Below are positions 7,212-31,700 of a stretch of 64,000 bases of DNA, piece by piece. The notes beneath the pieces were generated by a model. The model saw only the letters and a list, made by a program, of their open reading frames with translations. It was not told where the DNA came from and did no database searches. The translations under genes were made by a program, and so were the position numbers. Origin of the DNA: Escherichia coli (GTDB taxonomy: Bacteria; Pseudomonadota; Gammaproteobacteria; Enterobacterales; Enterobacteriaceae); the NCBI RefSeq assembly GCF_016903815.1, contig NZ_CP069973.1. One strand, given 5' to 3'. Every line of letters starts with the position of its first letter. Position 1 is the stretch's first letter.

Positions 7212-7538
7212 ATGAAAAAACTGATTCTCATCGCCATGATGGCATCGGGGCTGGTGGCTTGTGCGCAATCAACCGCGCCACAGGAAGACAGCCGTCTGAA
7301 AGAGGCATACAGCGCCTGTATCAACACCGCACAAGGTTCGCCAGAAAAAATTGAAGCCTGCCAGAGCGTGTTAAACGTGCTGAAGAAAGAGAAACAACAT
7401 CAGCAGTTTGCCGACCAGGAAAGTGTACGCGTACTGGATTATCAGCAGTGTCTGCGCGCAACGCAAACCGGAAATGATCAGGCGGTAAAAGCCGACTGTG
7501 ATAAGGTCTGGCAGGAAATTCGCAGTAATAACAAATAA
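7212..7538 (+). CDS. chiQ: lipoprotein ChiQ/YbfN
   Basis: 108 aa with lipobox (LVAC); immediately downstream of chiP as in E. coli. Confidence 0.85.
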   Translation: MKKLILIAMMASGLVACAQSTAPQEDSRLKEAYSACINTAQGSPEKIEACQSVLNVLKKEKQHQQFADQESVRVLDYQQCLRATQTGNDQAVKADCDKVWQEIRSNNK

Positions 7539-7577
7539 GTGAGAGCTGTAACTCTCGCTTTTCTTATTTCCCGTGTA

Positions 7578-7610
7578 TAAAAAAGCCAACCCGCAGGTTG
7601 GCTTTTCTCG
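7578..7610. terminator. bidirectional Rho-independent terminator between chiQ and fur
   Basis: Hairpin agccaacccgcaggttggct flanked by an A-run and a T-run. Confidence 0.7.
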
Positions 7611-7621
7611 TTCCGGCTGGC

Positions 7622-8068
7622 TTATTTGCCTTCGTGCGCGTGCTCATCTTCGCGGCAATCGCCTTCGGCACAGTGACCGTAAAGATAGAGACTGTGGTTA
7701 GTCAGGCGAATGCCATGTTTTGCGGCAATTTCACGCTGACGCGCTTCGATGGAATCATCACTAAATTCGATTACCTTGCCGCAGTCGAGGCAGATCAGGT
7801 GATCGTGGTGATGTTGCTGTGTCAGTTCAAATACGGATTTACCGCCTTCAAAATTGTGGCGGGTGACGATACCAGCGTCGTCAAACTGGTTCAGTACGCG
7901 ATATACCGTAGCCAGACCAATTTCTTCACCCATATCGATCAGACGTTTGTATAAATCTTCCGCACTGACGTGATGGTTGTCCGGCTCCTGAAGAACTTCC
8001 AGGATTTTTAAACGAGGAAGCGTTACTTTCAGGCCAGCTTTCTTTAGGGCGGTATTGTTATCAGTCAT
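7622..8068 (-). CDS. fur: ferric uptake regulator Fur
   Basis: 148 aa MTDNNTALKKAGLKVTLPRLKILEVLQEP...; metal-binding HHDH and Cys motifs; recognised as Fur. Confidence 0.95.
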   Translation of the reverse strand: MTDNNTALKKAGLKVTLPRLKILEVLQEPDNHHVSAEDLYKRLIDMGEEIGLATVYRVLNQFDDAGIVTRHNFEGGKSVFELTQQHHHDHLICLDCGKVIEFSDDSIEARQREIAAKHGIRLTNHSLYLYGHCAEGDCREDEHAHEGK

Positions 8069-25410: not shown

Positions 25411-28400
25411 ATGAGTGGAAAACCGGCGGCGCGTCAGGGCGACATGACGCAGTATGGCGGTAGCATTGTCCAGGGTTCAGCCGGGGTGCGCATCGGTGCC
25501 CCCACCGGCGTGGCCTGTTCGGTGTGCCCCGGCGGGGTGACGTCCGGCCATCCGGTCAATCCGCTGCTCGGCGCGAAGGTCCTTCCCGGAGAAACCGACC
25601 TTGCCCTGCCCGGCCCGCTGCCGTTCATCCTCTCCCGCACCTACAGCAGTTACCGGACAAAAACGCCCGCGCCGGTGGGGAGCCTCGGCCCCGGCTGGAA
25701 AATGCCTGCGGATATCCGCTTACAGCTGCGCGATAACACACTGATACTCAGTGATAACGGCGGCAGAAGCCTGTATTTTGAGCACCTGTTTCCCGGTGAG
25801 GACGGTTACAGCCGCAGCGAGTCACTCTGGCTGGTGCGCGGCGGTGTCCTGAAACTGGATGAAGGTCACCGGCTGGCCGCACTCTGGCAGGCGCTGCCGG
25901 AAGAACTCCGCTTAAGTCCGCATCGTTATCTGGCGACGAACAGTCCGCAGGGGCCGTGGTGGGTACTCGGCTGGTGTGAGCGGGTGCCGGAGGCGGATGA
26001 GGTGCTGCCTGCGCCGCTGCCGCCGTACCGGGTACTGACCGGGCTGGTGGACCGCTTCGGGCGCACACAGACGTTCCACCGTGAGGCTGGCGGCGAAATC
26101 ACCGGCGTGACGGATGGTGCCGGGCGTCACTTCCGGCTGGTACTGACCACGCAGGCGCAGCGGGCAGAAGAAGCCCGGCAGCAGGCCTCTTCCGGCGGGA
26201 CGGAACCGTCCGCTTTTCCTGATACCCTGCCGGGTTACACCGAATATGGCCGGGACAACGGCATCCGTCTGTCTGCCGTGTGGCTGACGCACGACCCGGA
26301 ATACCCGGAGAATTTACCTGCCGCGCCGCTGGTGCGCTATGGCTGGACGCCACGCGGCGAACTGGCGGCGGTGTATGACCGCAGCAATACACAGGTGCGC
26401 AGCTTTACTTACGATGATAAATACCGGGGCCGGATGGTGGCGCACCGTCACACGGGCCGGCCGGAAATCCGTTACCGTTACGACAGCGACGGGCGGGTGA
26501 CAGAACAGCTAAACCCGGCAGGCTTAAGCTACACGTATCAGTATGAGAAAGACCGCATCACCATCACCGACAGTATGGACCGCCGTGAAGTGCTGCACAC
26601 GCAGGGCGAAGGCGGGCTGAAGCGGGTGGTGAAAAAGGAACACGCGGACGGCAGCGTCACGCAGAGTCAGTTTGATGCGGTGGGCAGGCTTAAGGCACAG
26701 ACGGATGCCGCAGGCCGGACGACTGAGTACAGCCCGGATGTGGTGACGGGACTCATCACGCGCATCACCACACCGGATGGCAGGGCATCGGCATTTTACT
26801 ATAACCACCACAACCAGTTAACGTCAGCCACCGGGCCTGACGGGCTGGAAATACGCCGGGAATATGATGAATCCGGCCGTCTGATTCAGGAAACCGCACA
26901 CAACGGCGATATCACCCGCTACCGTTATGATAATCCACACAGTGACTTACCCTGCGCAACGGAAGATGCCACCGGCAGCCGGAAAACCATGACATGGAGC
27001 CGTTACGGTCAGTTGCTGACCGTCACTGACTGTTCCGGTTATGTAACCCGTTATGACCATGACCGTTTTGGTCAGGTGACGGCGGTGCACCGCGAGGAAG
27101 GGCTGAGTCAGTACCGCGCATACGACAGCCGTGGACAGTTAATTGCGGTGAAAGACACGCAGGGCCATGAAACGCGGTATGAATACAACGCCGCCGGTGA
27201 CCTGACCGCCGTCATTGCCCCGGACGGCAGCAGAAACGGGACACAGTACGATGCGTGGGGAAAGGCCATCCGTACCACACAGGGCGGTCTGACGCGCAGT
27301 ATGGAATACGATGCTGCCGGACGGGTCATCCGCCTGACCAGTGAAAACGGCAGCCACACCACCTTCCGTTACGATGTACTCGACCGGCTGATACAGGAAA
27401 CCGGCTTTGACGGCCGCACACAGCGTTATCACCACGACCTGACCGGCAAACTTATCCGCAGCGAGGATGAGGGGCTGGTCACCCACTGGCACTATGACGA
27501 AGCAGACCGCATCACACAGCGAACGGTGAATGGTGAAACCGCAGAACAGTGGCGGTACGACGAACGCGGCTGGCTGACACAAATCAGCCATCTCAGCGAA
27601 GGCCACCGGGTGACGGTGCATTACGGGTATGATGAGAAAGGCCGCCTGACCGGTGAGCGCCAGACGGTGCATCACCCGCAGACGGAAGCACTGCTCTGGC
27701 AGCATGAAACCAGACACGCTTACAACGCGCAGGGACTGGCGAACCGCTGTATACCGGACAGCCTGCCCGCCGTGGAATGGCTGACTTACGGCAGCGGCTG
27801 GCTGGCAGGCATGAAACTCGGCGACACACCGCTGGTGGATTTCACCCGCGACCGCCTGCACCGGGAAACGCTGCGCAGCTTCGGCCGTTATGAACTCACC
27901 ACCGCTTATACCTCTGCCGGGCAGTTACAGAGCCAGCACCTGAACAGCCTGCAGTATGACCGCGATTACACCTGGAACGACAACGGCGAACTCATCCGCA
28001 TCAGCAGCCCGCGCCAGACCCGGAGTTACAGCTACAGCGACACCGGCAGGCTGACCGGCGTCCACACCACGGCAGCGAACCTTGATATCCGCATCCCGTA
28101 TGCCACGGACCCGGCGGGCAACCGCCTGCCCGACCCGGAGCTGCACCCGGACAGCCCCCTCAGCGCATGGCCGGATAACCGTATCGCCCGTGACGCGCAC
28201 TATCTTTACCGGTATGACCGTCACGGCAGGCTGACGGAGAAAACCGACCTCATCCCGGAAGGGGTTATCCGCACGGATGATGAGCGGACTCACCGGTACC
28301 ATTACGACAGCCGGCACCGGCTGGTGCACTACACGCGGACACAATATGCAGAGCCGCTGGTCGAAAGTCGCTATCTTTACGACCTGCTGGGCCGCAGGGT

Positions 28401-29550
28401 GGCAAAACGGGTATGGCGGCGTGAACGGGACCTGACGGGCTGGATGTCGCTGTCATGGAAACCGGAAGTGCCCTGGTACGGCTGGGACGGCGACCGGCTG
28501 ACCACAATACAGAACGACAGAACCCGCATCCAGACGGTTTATCAGCCGGGGAGCTTCACGCCACTCATCAGAGTTGAAACTGCCACCGGTGAGCTGGCGA
28601 AAACGCAGCGCCGCAGCCTGGCGGATGCGCTTCAGCAGTCCGGCGGTGAAGACGGTGGCAGTGTGGTGTTCCCGCCGGTGCTGGTGCAGATGCTCGACCG
28701 GCTGGAAAGTGAAATCCTGGCTGACCGGGTGAGTGAGGAAAGCCGCCGCTGGCTGGCATCGTGCGGCCTGACGGTGGAGCAGATACAAAACCAGATGGAC
28801 CCGGTGTACACGCCGGCGCGAAAAATCCACCTGTACCACTGCGACCATCGCGGCCTGCCGCTGGCGCTTGTCAGCACGGAAGGGGCAACAGAATGGTGCG
28901 CAGAATACGATGAATGGGGCAACCTGCTGAATGAAGAGAACCCGCATCAGCTGCAGCAGCTCATCCGCCTGCCGGGTCAGCAGTATGATGAGGAGTCCGG
29001 CCTGTATTACAACCGCCACCGCTATTATGACCCGCTGAAGGGGCGGTATATCACTCAGGATCCGATTGGACTGAAGGGGGGATGGAATTTTTATCAGTAT
29101 CCGTTAAATCCGATCTCAGAGATAGACCCACAAGGGTTAAATCCGTTAATTCTTAGTGTTGTAGCACTGATGAGTTGCGGTTTGTTTTCATCAGGTGGTG
29201 TTATCCAAAGTGGGCAACAACGCAGAGATCAATATGGCCGTAAAGTTAATCCAGAAGCCGACAAATTAACAGATGAACATAAGTCAGGTGTAAATCCTGG
29301 TGGTAACTGTAGTCCCCAGAACCTGAGTGACTTACAAAATGAAAAAAACAGATTATGTAACCAGTCTAGAGCTTGCGCTCCTCAGATGCTGAGAAAAGAA
29401 ATATTGAGACGGTACGAGATAAATTTGGCGTGCGCTTCGGTCAGAAAGCAGATTAATAATCAGTGCTTTGGTGGTGGAGATAAGGCCCATATGGAAGAAG
29501 AGAATAAAGCATATAAAACAGCAGCTGATTGCAGTGGCTTAATAAAATGA
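25411..29550 (+). CDS. rhsC: Rhs-family polymorphic toxin: YD-repeat shell, PxxxxDPxGL core boundary, variable C-terminal tip
   Basis: 1379 aa; GC-rich YD/RHS repeat core with an N-terminal region close to K-12 RhsC as I recall it; core ends at ...[14 protein letters not shown] (about 29139), followed by a roughly 136 aa AT-rich tip. Confidence 0.9.
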
Positions 29551-30050
29551 AAAAAATAATTTTCTCTAACGAGAGTGCAGTCTATGATGAACTTATGATT
29601 CATTTCCCATGCCAGCCATTACCTCATATTTCAAATGATATTACAGGGCTGGAGGAACTGGATATTGTATATAATTTTTTCCAAAAGAAACAATGGAATG
29701 AAATAGCCAACAATTTTAAAATAAAGGATGACTCTTATGCTTTAGAGTTAGGAATTACATTCCTCCCTGAGAAAGTATTCTGCTATTACATCCCTCTGTA
29801 TATTTATGCCTCGTTGTTTAATAAGAATGATTTTTGGGTTTTTGAATCCGATTTTATTCAACAATATTTATGTCCTGAGTATCGGGATCACGATGATTTT
29901 TTGAATTTTGTTTTTAATTTTTCAGATATACAACTATCTATTATTGCACAGTTTATGTCTTATGAATCAGACGCTGGATTCTTTTATGCAAGTAAAGCTT
30001 GTATGGATTTTTGGGAAGATTATTCACCTCTATTACATAAGAAAATTTAA
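29547..30050 (+). CDS. putative cognate Rhs immunity protein
   Basis: 167 aa ORF ([20 protein letters not shown]...) whose ATG overlaps the rhsC stop (ATGA); AT-rich like the toxin tip; the position and coupling are typical of rhsI genes. An in-frame ATG at 29529 is an alternative start. Confidence 0.6.
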
Positions 30051-30102: not shown

Positions 30103-30720
30103 ATGAAAAATAAGATGACGTTGGCATATAGATCACTGCGAATAATCCACCTCTACCACTGCGACTATCGCGGCCTGCCGCTGACGCTTATCAGCCCTGA
30201 CGGGGCAACAGAATGGTGCGCAGAATATGATGAATGGGGCAACCTGCTGACTGAAGAGAACCCGCAGCACCTGCAGCAGCTTATCCGTCTGCCGGGGCAG
30301 CAGTATGATGAGGAGTCCGGCCTGTATTACAACCGCCACCGCTATTATGACCCGCTGCAGGGGCGGTGTATCACTCAGGATCCGATTGGGCTGGAAGGCG
30401 GGTGGAATCAGTATGTATATGCTTCCATACATCCAACCTATTCTATTGATCCGCTGGGCTTAATTGATAAACCTGCTCCAGTATTCAATCGAGAACTAAA
30501 TTCAGATGCGTATTATCTTGCCGTAAATAATTGCTATTCATATGCTCTAAATAGGTATGGAAATCCTGGGAGTAGGATTTTTGGCGGCGGAGGATTACAA
30601 CCTGGAGAATTATCTGGAAAAGAGTTTTCTAAACTCACTTGTAGTAGTATTTTTGAAGCGTCAAAAAATGATGGTGCCAAGGACAGGGAAAGATCATCAG
30701 AAGTACACTTTTTGTACTAA
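30103..30720 (+). other. orphan Rhs C-terminal tip fragment (core-end homology plus an alternative toxin domain); lacks the Rhs core and a credible start of its own
   Basis: Translation ...[35 protein letters not shown]...[17 protein letters not shown]...IDPLGL then an unrelated 85 aa tail; nucleotides 30141-30408 are about 92% identical to rhsC 28821-29088 by eye. Confidence 0.8.
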
Positions 30721-30759
30721 ATAATTCGCATTTTATGTTTAAAAATTGAGATATTCCTC

Positions 30760-31700
30760 ATTACCTGAAGCTGTTTTTTATTGCTTATACATGATCAAAT
30801 ACTCCTTACATAATTAAGGAGAACAAAATGGAACTTAAAAAATTGATGGAACATATTTCTATTATCCCCGATTACAGACAAGCCTGGAAAGTGGAACATA
30901 AATTGTCGGATATTCTACTGTTGACTATTTGTGCCGTTATTTCTGGTGCAGAAGGCTGGGAAGATATAGAGGATTTTGGGGAAACACATCTCGATTTTTT
31001 GAAGCAATATGGTGATTTTGAAAATGGTATTCCTGTTCACGATACCATTGCCAGAGTTGTATCCTGTATCAGTCCTGCAAAATTTCACGAGTGCTTTATT
31101 AACTGGATGCGTGACTGCCATTCTTCAGATGATAAAGGCGTCATTGCAATTGATGGAAAAACGCTCCGGCACTCTTATGACTAGAGTCGCCGCAGGGGAG
31201 CGATTCATGTCATTAGTTCGTTCTCAACAATGCACAGTCTGGTCATCGGACAGATCAGGACGGATGAGAAATCCAATGAAATTACAGCTATCCCTGAACT
31301 TCTTAACATGTTGGATATTAAAGGAAAAATTATCACAACTGATGCGATGGGTTGCCAGAAAGATATCGCAGAGAAGATACAAAAACAGGGCGGTGATTAT
31401 TTATTCGCTGTAAAAGGAAACCAGGGGCGGCTAAATAAAGCCTTTGAGGAAAAGTTTCCGCTGAAAGAATTAAATAATCCAGAGCATGGCAGTTACGCAA
31501 TGAGTGAAAAGAGTCACGGCAGAGAAGAAATCCGTCTTCACATTGTTTGCGATGTCCCTGATGAACTTATTGATTTCACGTTTGAATGGAAAGGGCAGCC
31601 ATGGACAGAAACTACCTGACGTCAGTCCTTGCGGGGAGCGGGCTTTCGTAATCTTGCCCTGCTACAACAGGATTAACTTCACAAATATCATTTCCCAACG
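30760..31700 (+). mobile_element. H-repeat (ISAs1-family) element remnant, boundaries approximate
   Basis: Encodes an H-repeat-associated transposase-like protein ([57 protein letters not shown]...), as found beside Rhs elements in E. coli. Confidence 0.75.
30828..31619 (+). pseudogene. H-repeat-associated (ISAs1 family) transposase, disrupted
   Basis: Two same-frame ORFs (30828-31184 and 31230-31619) separated by an in-frame TAG at 31182-31184; the 3' part is shortened relative to full-length H-rpt proteins as I recall them, with the conserved C-terminal MDRNYL...SVLAGSGLS segment in a different frame after 31610. Confidence 0.75.

What the first reader, a model, noticed from the sequence alone, without database searches (positions are those of the whole stretch)
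25411..29550. rhsC carries an AT-rich, Cys-rich C-terminal tip that I cannot assign to any toxin family
The GC-rich YD-repeat core ends at the DPxGL boundary (...IDPQGL, about 29139). The following roughly 136 aa (29140-29547) switch abruptly to AT-rich sequence and encode [136 protein letters not shown]. This differs from the K-12 RhsC tip as I recall it. The composition break marks it as a horizontally exchanged effector module of unknown activity, which makes it the strongest candidate for an undescribed function in the window.
Basis: partly seen in the sequence, partly recalled or inferred. Interest (0 to 1): 0.7.

Follow-up and report, generated by a model that had tools for sequence, protein, structure and literature searches.

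The report
RhsC toxin tip is Ntox16
The odd C-terminal end of this E. coli RhsC protein is a swapped-in toxin module of the already catalogued but never tested "Novel toxin 16" family, and the gene next to it is very probably its antidote, so it is an ordinary toxin cassette whose killing chemistry is still unknown.

Summary
ORF 25411-29550 encodes a 1379-aa Rhs protein. Residues 1-1243 are 95% identical to K-12 RhsC, and similarity ends at the second DPxGL motif. GC falls from 0.62 (core) to 0.41 (tip) and 0.30 (next gene).

The claim that the tip fits no toxin family is wrong. Tip residues 54-133 match Pfam Ntox16 (PF15523, E=1.6e-12, nearly the whole model). They carry the published R/[DNE]xxH signature, and UniProt already labels identical fragments "Novel toxin 16".

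No experiment on Ntox16 was found. The only paper naming it predicts a metal-independent RNase.

New here:
- The family has six invariant cysteines plus R102 and G-G-[DN]-x-x-H117.
- AlphaFold2 gives a confident helical bundle with no informative structural relative.
- The overlapping downstream ORF (29547-30050) is a DUF6714 protein. A DUF6714 gene follows Ntox16 in 8 of 9 other loci checked, on Rhs, eCIS and Sec-signal carriers.
- DUF6714 proteins are acidic and lack signal peptides, which points to action in the target cytoplasm.

Verdict: an ordinary Rhs toxin/immunity cassette, present in 243 of 5426 complete E. coli genomes, from a named but uncharacterised family.

The parts
25411..29550 (+). 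Full rhs gene at the rhsC locus (kdpFABC and ybfA upstream; ybgA and phr downstream), 1379 aa. RefSeq WP_048219329.1, 'RHS element core protein'.
25411..29139 (+). Conserved Rhs core, aa 1-1243. Contains DUF6531 (aa 46-123), YD repeats and the RHS-associated core. It is 95% identical to K-12 RhsC. GC 0.616.
29059..29139 (+). Autoprotease signature DPIGL-(17 aa)-DPQGL, aa 1217-1243. This is the predicted C-terminal self-cleavage site that releases the tip. DNA similarity to K-12 rhsC ends at 29130.
   Evidence: The motif definition is from Jurenas et al. 2021, PMC8636562. Cleavage itself is inferred.
29140..29205 (+). Hydrophobic, Gly/Ala/Ser-rich segment [22 protein letters not shown] (tip aa 1-22). 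It looks like a transmembrane segment (19-mer Kyte-Doolittle 1.98) and has low confidence in the AlphaFold2 model.
   Evidence: A similar segment lies 10-70 aa before the first Cys in 40 of 129 family representatives.
29221..29298 (+). N-terminal extension of the toxin domain (tip aa 28-53) with helix H1 (aa 38-49). It is modelled with pLDDT about 97 and is conserved in many homologs (DxxGxxVxPxA), but lies outside the Pfam model.
29299..29538 (+). Ntox16 (PF15523) domain, tip aa 54-133. It has three long helices. Invariant residues are C57, C73, C79, C98, R102, C109, G112, G113, D114, H117 and C131. R102 is at nt 29443-29445 and H117 at nt 29488-29490.
29547..30050 (+). Putative immunity gene, 167 aa, DUF6714 (PF20461). 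Its ATG overlaps the rhs TGA (ATGA). The protein is acidic (pI 4.5, charge -13), has no signal peptide, is all-alpha and has GC 0.304. RefSeq WP_000720081.1, 'hypothetical protein'.
   Evidence: and the synteny.
30103..30720 (+). Displaced orphan rhs module: a core fragment (30138-30408) plus a second, unrelated tip (30409-30683). The ISAs1/H-repeat element cuts it from 30684. It is not part of the Ntox16 cassette but documents the tip displacement.

Best explanation
The gene is an Rhs polymorphic toxin. Its conserved RhsC-type shell (aa 1-1243) is joined at the double DPxGL autoprotease motif to a foreign 136-aa tip. A co-acquired immunity gene follows.

The tip has two parts: a 22-aa hydrophobic leader and a helical toxin domain of about 110 aa that belongs to Pfam Ntox16.

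Proposed mechanism:
1. The shell encloses the tip. This is inferred from solved Rhs structures.
2. After delivery to a neighbouring cell, self-cleavage after DPQGL frees the tip (inferred). Delivery is probably by a type VI secretion system, which was not tested.
3. The toxin domain acts in the target cytoplasm. This is inferred from the partner protein, which is always free of a signal peptide, and from eCIS-borne family members.
4. In sibling cells the acidic DUF6714 protein blocks it, probably by direct binding (inferred).

The functional site is most likely the polar cluster around invariant R102 and H117 at the helix 3/helix 4 turn. The six invariant cysteines hold the small bundle together, through bound metal or disulfides.

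The most likely target class is nucleic acid, as in the RNase prediction of Zhang et al. 2012. I put that step at only about 0.3.

The confidence figure given applies to the package: Ntox16 member, DUF6714 as cognate immunity, and cytoplasmic action.
For: - Family membership: Pfam Ntox16 E=1.6e-12, model positions 2-84 of 85.
- The published R and [DNE]xxH signature (PMC3482391) is present as R102 and D114-K-A-H117, and these positions are invariant or nearly so in 133 homolog domains.
- The domain sits at the extreme C-terminus in nearly all of about 160 homologs.
- The AlphaFold2 model is helical and confident: pLDDT 90, and above 94 for residues 30-136.
- Cassette nature: breakpoints at 29130, the GC drop, and presence in only 243 of 5426 genomes at >=99% identity.
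- Immunity: ATGA start/stop overlap.
- Immunity: the downstream ORF hits DUF6714.
- Immunity: a DUF6714 gene lies directly downstream of Ntox16 in 8 of 9 divergent loci. The carriers are Rhs, an orphan module, Sec-signal proteins and eCIS_core proteins. The ninth locus has a weakly DUF6714-like ORF.
- Cytoplasmic action: none of 30 DUF6714 N-termini looks like a signal peptide (maximum 12-mer hydropathy 1.38). The immunity protein of the neighbouring displaced tip scores 2.18 and has an obvious Sec signal.
- Nucleic-acid lean: toxin domains are basic (median pI 8.5; 72% above 8) and immunity proteins are strongly acidic (median pI 4.4).
- Self-cleavage: DPIGL-17 aa-DPQGL matches the motif shown by mutation to be required for C-terminal cleavage in Photorhabdus Rhs1 (PMC8636562).
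Against: - No activity has been measured for any Ntox16 protein.
- R102 and H117 lie on the inter-helix core stripes, so they could be structural rather than catalytic. D/N114 looks like a helix N-cap.
- Six invariant cysteines are unusual for a toxin that acts in the reducing cytoplasm.
- Several family members carry Sec signal peptides, which would suit folding outside the cytoplasm.
- An AlphaFold2 toxin-linker-immunity fusion did not dock confidently (pTM 0.58).
- The N-terminus has only a partial PAAR match (E=0.18), and no vgrG or eagR gene is adjacent. Type VI delivery is therefore an assumption.
Confidence: 0.6

Rival explanations
1. Envelope-acting toxin. The six cysteines form three disulfides in the target periplasm. 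The hydrophobic leader anchors the domain to the inner membrane, and the toxin damages the membrane or a periplasmic or lipid-linked target.
For: - Six invariant Cys in about 75 residues.
- Sec-signal and lipoprotein-signal family members.
- A transmembrane-like segment lies upstream in 40 of 129 representatives.
Against: - All 30 DUF6714 partners lack signal peptides or membrane anchors. Periplasm-acting effectors normally have exported immunity proteins, as the displaced neighbouring tip does.
- eCIS-borne members would be injected straight into the cytoplasm.
- A third of the family has a seventh, unpaired Cys.
- No fold match to lipases, pore-formers or saposin-like proteins.
Confidence: 0.15
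2. Non-enzymatic toxin. The invariant residues are all structural (Cys cross-links or metal, the Gly-Gly turn, a helix cap, a buried Arg and His). The rigid mini-bundle poisons an essential cytoplasmic protein or complex by tight binding.
For: - R102 and H117 lie on the same helix faces as the core cysteines, and D/N114 sits at the N-cap of helix 4.
- The domain is very small, about 80-110 aa.
- It shows no similarity to any enzyme fold.
Against: - An invariant Arg and His across 133 diverse sequences is more typical of catalysis.
- The surface positions are poorly conserved, which argues against a single conserved protein-binding interface.
- The basic-toxin and acidic-immunity pattern fits nucleic-acid enzymes.
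Confidence: 0.15
3. Inactive relic. The tip and its partner are decaying passengers with no present function.
For: - The rhsC locus has no adjacent secretion genes.
- The neighbouring orphan tip is clearly dead.
- Some enterobacterial homologs are degenerate, for example C109R and frameshifted copies.
Against: - The 1379-codon ORF is intact and every family-invariant residue is retained.
- The start/stop overlap with the partner gene is intact.
- The cassette is >=99% identical in 243 genomes.
Confidence: 0.04

Closest known systems
Ntox16 / 'Novel toxin 16' (Pfam PF15523; Zhang, de Souza, Anantharaman, Iyer & Aravind 2012, Biol Direct 7:18)
   Same: The tip is a member. It gives a near full-length HMM match, has the R and [DNE]xxH signature, is alpha-helical, and is the C-terminal module of an RHS protein. 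The same carriers (RHS, PVC/eCIS, Sec-exported) were seen here.
   Different: The 2012 table lists no immunity family and does not mention the six invariant cysteines. Here DUF6714 emerges as the regular partner. The conserved domain also extends about 25 residues N-terminal of the Pfam model. The family's RNase label is a prediction only.
E. coli K-12 RhsC (b0700) with YbfB
   Same: Same chromosomal locus (kdp-ybfA ... ybgA-phr). The shell is 95% identical up to DPxGL. The layout is the same: tip, small downstream gene, orphan rhs fragments and H-repeat/ISAs1 elements.
   Different: The tip and downstream gene are unrelated. K-12 has a 153-aa tip followed by ybfB. This window has Ntox16 followed by DUF6714.
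Photorhabdus laumondii Rhs1-Tre23 (Jurenas et al. 2021) and other structurally solved T6SS Rhs effectors
   Same: The overall logic is the same: a YD-repeat shell, a C-terminal aspartyl-protease plug with two DPxGL motifs 17 residues apart, an exchangeable toxin tip and a cognate immunity gene.
   Different: Rhs1 has a full prePAAR/PAAR region with transmembrane helices and an EagR chaperone, and sits in a T6SS island. The window protein has only a partial PAAR match, no adjacent eagR or vgrG, and an unrelated toxin domain.
Ntox15 / Tde1 DNase (HxxD motif, mostly alpha-helical T6SS toxin)
   Same: A small, mostly helical polymorphic-toxin domain defined by a short His/Asp motif and neutralised by a cytoplasmic immunity protein.
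   Different: The motif order is reversed (DxxH rather than HxxD). No sequence or fold match was found. Ntox15 has no Cys framework. The resemblance comes from memory and the 2012 table only.
HEPN-type RNase toxins
   Same: An all-alpha bundle with an Arg and a His as the only invariant polar residues. The His sits at the start of the last helix.

Membership tests
Rhs / YD-repeat polymorphic toxin | Full-length match to the RHS core model above its curated cut-off, with YD repeats | tested here: met
   NF041261 RHS_core equivalog: 2606 bits against a cut-off of 2000, covering aa 1-1243. TIGR01643 YD repeats and TIGR03696 also match.
Rhs / YD-repeat polymorphic toxin | C-terminal autoprotease signature: two DPxGL motifs 17 residues apart, directly before the variable tip | tested here: met
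   DPIGL at aa 1217 and DPQGL at aa 1239. The motif is as described in PMC8636562. Cleavage itself is not testable here.
Rhs / YD-repeat polymorphic toxin | N-terminal PAAR domain and dependence on a type VI secretion system | tested here: inconclusive
   The Pfam PAAR_motif match is only partial (E=0.18, aa 2-20). DUF6531 matches at aa 46-123. No vgrG, eagR or T6SS gene lies next to the locus. Secretion cannot be tested with these tools.
Ntox16 (PF15523) | Significant, near full-length match to the family HMM | tested here: met
   E=1.6e-12, 47.9 bits, model positions 2-84 of 85. Close homologs carry PF15523 in precomputed annotation. Identical fragments are named 'Novel toxin 16 domain-containing protein'.
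Ntox16 (PF15523) | Conserved R and [DNE]xxH motif (Zhang et al. 2012, Table 2) | tested here: met
   R102 is present in 133 of 133 homolog domains, D/N114 in 132 of 133 and H117 in 132 of 133. The window sequence has R102 and D114-K-A-H117.
Ntox16 (PF15523) | Alpha-helical domain at the C-terminus of polymorphic-toxin carriers (RHS, PVC/eCIS, Sec-exported) | tested here: met
   The AlphaFold2 model has four helices and pLDDT 90. The domain is C-terminal in nearly all homologs. Carriers seen were RHS, eCIS_core and DUF6531 and Sec signals.
Ntox16 (PF15523) | Toxic activity (predicted metal-independent RNase) | not testable with these tools
   No experimental report was found. No structural relative indicates the chemistry.
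DUF6714 (PF20461) as cognate immunity | HMM match of the downstream ORF | tested here: met
   E=3.9e-5, model positions 65-159 of 161, so the match is partial. Close homologs are annotated PF20461 or 'DUF6714 family protein'.
DUF6714 (PF20461) as cognate immunity | Conserved position directly downstream of the toxin across divergent carriers | tested here: met
   8 of 9 loci looked up, plus the window. The ninth is weakly similar (hhalign E=0.011).
DUF6714 (PF20461) as cognate immunity | Direct binding to the toxin and neutralisation of it | tested here: inconclusive
   In an AlphaFold2 fusion of toxin, 30-aa linker and immunity, both halves folded confidently but pTM was only 0.58, so no confident interface was found. 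This needs an experiment.
HEPN RNase superfamily (considered) | Rx4-6H motif at the start of the last core helix, and a HEPN fold match | tested here: not met
Secreted phospholipase A2 / saposin-like Cys-rich helical proteins (considered) | His-Asp dyad with a Ca-binding loop (PLA2), or the saposin six-Cys spacing, together with a fold match | tested here: not met
   The Cys spacing is C-x15-C-x5-C-x18-C-x10-C-x21-C and there is no HD dyad. No PLA2 or saposin structure appears among the PDB hits.

The most novel reading that the evidence does not exclude
Ntox16 could be a new kind of toxin rather than the RNase it was guessed to be. It would be a mini helical bundle of about 80 residues locked by six invariant cysteines (two metal sites or three disulfides). 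Its fold has no solved relative and its chemistry or target would be new. DUF6714 would then be a new all-alpha immunity fold dedicated to it. The hydrophobic leader found in about 30% of family members would be a built-in device that carries the released tip across, or into, the target inner membrane.
Probability: 0.3. Interest if true: 0.6.

Novelty: new member of a known kind. Interest (0 to 1): 0.35.

Why it matters
For genome annotation it matters little. This is a standard Rhs tip and immunity replacement, and the tip already has a Pfam name.

Its value is as a tractable entry point to an untested toxin family:
- The family is widespread, with 274 sequence clusters at 50% identity across Proteobacteria, Cyanobacteria and Verrucomicrobia, including Akkermansia.
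- It is carried by three different delivery systems.
- It has a confident predicted fold with no solved relative.

The analysis also gives DUF6714 a likely role as Ntox16 immunity, which the 2012 catalogue did not list. It supplies specific residues to mutate (R1345, H1360 and the six cysteines). An E. coli allele makes the toxicity and rescue experiments easy to run.

Tried and rejected
- NCBIfam and PADLOC scans of the tip and the immunity ORF found nothing.
- PDB sequence searches with single sequences and with profiles of the toxin (A1) and immunity (A3) found nothing. The only hits were a chance IpaB coiled-coil at E about 0.4.
- PLA2-like, saposin-like and HEPN readings were rejected on motif spacing and the absence of fold matches.
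- Disulfide or metal: I looked for paired gain and loss of cysteines. The only variable Cys (position 85, in 42 of 133 sequences) has no partner column, so 41 sequences have an odd count of 7. That leans against a purely disulfide framework but does not settle it.
- An AlphaFold2 fusion of toxin, GS linker and immunity, with 9 paired rows, gave pTM 0.58. No confident docking resulted.
- A profile search for more distant DUF6714 relatives added essentially nothing.
- P0156, apparently a protein with seven tandem Ntox16 copies, turned out to be a low-complexity artefact.
- Ma et al. 2017, a catalogue of E. coli Rhs-CT classes, is not held in the library. I could not check whether this tip is one of their CT1-CT10 classes.
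Full report
**1. Observation**

Upstream are kdpFABC and ybfA. Downstream are ybgA, phr and dtpD. This is the rhsC locus of E. coli, and the window is 100% identical across the tested 1011-bp tip/immunity segment to strain 7/2 and many other complete genomes.

The NCBIfam RHS_core equivalog covers residues 1-1243 (2606 bits against a cut-off of 2000). BLASTP against K-12 RhsC gives 95% identity over residues 1-1250 and nothing afterwards. DNA similarity to K-12 stops at window 29130, inside the DPQGL codons.

GC is 0.616 in the core, 0.407 in the tip, 0.304 in the next ORF and 0.517 over the window. The tip has 7 Cys in 136 residues, against 9 in the 1243-residue core.

The one caveat is that the K-12 tip is also Cys-rich.

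**2. What the tip is**

A Pfam scan of the last 180 residues gives Ntox16 (PF15523) at E=1.6e-12, covering model positions 2-84 of 85. That corresponds to tip residues 54-133.

Ntox16 was defined in silico by Zhang et al. 2012. [quoted passage not shown] It is the only paper in the library that contains 'Ntox16'. AFDB entries 100% identical to the query are already titled 'Novel toxin 16 domain-containing protein'. The statement that its activity is unknown stands.

**3. Family anatomy**

An exhaustive HMMER scan of 1.84 billion representative proteins found 274 clusters at E<=1e-3. The domain lies at the extreme C-terminus in nearly all of them.

In a MAFFT alignment of 133 domains, the following positions are invariant or nearly so (tip numbering; add 1243 for Rhs numbering): G55, C57, L65, C73, C79, C98, R102, C109, G112, G113, D/N114, H117 and C131. 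That amounts to six invariant cysteines, one Arg, and a Gly-Gly-[DN]-x-x-His turn.

A conserved stretch about 25 residues upstream (DxxGxxVxPxA) extends the domain beyond the Pfam model.

Among 58 long homologs the carriers include RHS (9-15), eCIS_core/DUF4157 (3) and DUF6531 (3). Many complete 300-450-aa proteins begin with Sec or lipoprotein signal peptides.

**4. Structure**

AlphaFold2 with an 84-sequence alignment gives mean pLDDT 90.1 and pTM 0.77. Residues 30-136 score above 94. The helices span residues 38-49, 59-73, 85-109 and 115-135. The first 22 residues are of low confidence.

Helical-periodicity analysis gives some geometry. N95, C98, R102, I105 and C109 fall on one face of helix 3. 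H117, A121, A124, A128 and C131 fall on one face of helix 4. R102 and H117 therefore sit in the inter-helix layer near the Gly-Gly turn, and D/N114 is positioned as the N-cap of helix 4.

A third of the family has a seventh Cys, at the start of helix 3, with no partner column. That argues mildly for metal ligation over a pure three-disulfide framework.

**5. The partner gene**

The rhs stop codon overlaps the ATG at 29547 (ATGA). The 167-aa product matches DUF6714 (PF20461, E=3.9e-5). RefSeq calls it a hypothetical protein.

I looked up nine divergent Ntox16 genes in public assemblies. A DUF6714 gene lies directly downstream in eight of them:
- a Rahnella orphan module;
- three Rhs proteins from metagenomes or MAGs;
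- two Sec-signal proteins;
- two eCIS_core proteins.

The ninth has a 152-aa ORF that shares the FFxGK...FLPxxxFxYYLPxY motif only weakly (hhalign E=0.011).

This regular pairing across three delivery systems is the classic signature of a cognate immunity protein. The 2012 catalogue does not record it.

None of the 30 DUF6714 N-termini examined has a signal-peptide-like hydrophobic core (maximum 12-mer hydropathy 1.38). The immunity protein of the neighbouring displaced tip scores 2.18 and has an obvious Sec signal.

DUF6714 proteins are strongly acidic (median pI 4.4, charge about -13), while Ntox16 domains are basic (median pI 8.5). AlphaFold2 folds DUF6714 as a confident all-alpha domain. 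A toxin-linker-immunity fusion reached only pTM 0.58, so the interface is not predicted.

**6. Mechanism**

Shown by the analysis:
- membership of the Rhs and Ntox16 families;
- the cassette boundaries;
- the conserved Ntox16-DUF6714 synteny;
- the absence of export signals on the partner.

Inferred:
- The tip is enclosed in the YD shell and released by the DPIGL-17 aa-DPQGL aspartyl protease. This motif is required for C-terminal cleavage in Photorhabdus Rhs1 (PMC8636562).
- Delivery is by a type VI system. This is weakly supported: there is only a partial PAAR match and no neighbouring vgrG or eagR. The gene belongs to the 'neighbourless' Rhs class described for E. coli (PMC6730261).
- The toxin acts in the cytoplasm, because its immunity is cytoplasmic and some relatives are eCIS cargo.
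- DUF6714 neutralises it by binding.

The chemistry is open. I lean to a nucleic-acid target at about 0.3, based on the invariant Arg and His, the basic-toxin/acidic-immunity pattern and the 2012 prediction. The envelope-acting disulfide model and a non-enzymatic binder remain credible, at about 0.15 each.

The 22-residue hydrophobic leader recurs in 40 of 129 representatives, 10-70 residues before the first Cys. It may help the released tip engage the inner membrane. How Rhs tips cross that membrane is an open question (bioRxiv 10.1101/2025.10.28.685041).

**7. Population context**

The tip plus immunity cassette is found in 243 of 5426 complete E. coli genomes. It is always chromosomal, nearly always single-copy (245 places in 243 genomes) and >=99% identical. 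Sensitive blastn finds no diverged alleles. Close homologs (60-90% identity) occur in Shigella, Citrobacter, Enterobacter, Lelliottia, Salmonella and Rahnella.

Just downstream lies an orphan rhs fragment carrying a second tip. In strain 7CC that second tip is the main rhsC tip. This fits the C-terminal displacement model: the Ntox16 cassette was inserted upstream of an older tip. An ISAs1/H-repeat insertion then truncated the older tip.

**8. Verdict**

This is a real but ordinary feature: an Rhs toxin/immunity cassette whose toxin belongs to a named, uncharacterised family. The weaker claim of unknown activity, and of a good candidate for experiment, holds.

The modest new content is:
- the Ntox16-DUF6714 pairing;
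- the six-cysteine framework;
- the argument for cytoplasmic action;
- a confident predicted fold with no solved relative.

Noticed in passing
window 30103-30720 (core fragment 30138-30408; tip 30409-30683): An orphan rhs module carries a second, unrelated tip (GC 0.38, no Pfam hit). In E. coli 7CC the same tip is the main rhsC tip. There it is about 74 aa longer, contains NNCYSYA...DYHWY (a Cys/His pattern that looks like a papain/NlpC-type amidase, not tested), and is followed by a 124-aa immunity protein with a Sec signal. In the window the tip is cut after ...GAKD, so the His region and the immunity gene are lost. 283 of 5426 E. coli genomes carry this tip.
   Followed up: partly
window 30684-31663 (RefSeq pseudogene about 30828-31595): An ISAs1-family / H-repeat (ybfD/ybfL-like) transposase pseudogene with an internal stop. 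Its insertion point truncates the orphan tip. K-12 has three H-repeat-related genes at this locus (ybfQ, ybfL, ybfD).
   Followed up: partly
L002 (K-12 MG1655) 7300-7777, compared with window 29140-29547: The K-12 RhsC tip is also Cys-rich (11 Cys in 153 aa) and unrelated to Ntox16. Its family was not examined.
   Followed up: no
L006 1243-1806 (P0154) and P0079: Some Sec-signal Ntox16 proteins have an extra, partial upstream copy of the domain. That copy has CF[ED]G[RK]HPEYS in place of GGDxxH, so it may be a degenerate duplicated module.
   Followed up: no
AFDB hit A0A1X3J1T7 (E. coli TA447 'RhsD'): A second, divergent Ntox16 tip (37% identity) is attached to a different E. coli Rhs paralogue. 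The species therefore carries at least two Ntox16 lineages. DNA searches do not detect it.
   Followed up: no
L005 1-2954: In one metagenomic contig the Ntox16 Rhs gene follows another Rhs gene with an AHH nuclease tip and a 358-aa partner. ParDE and MazE modules lie nearby, so this looks like a toxin island.
   Followed up: no
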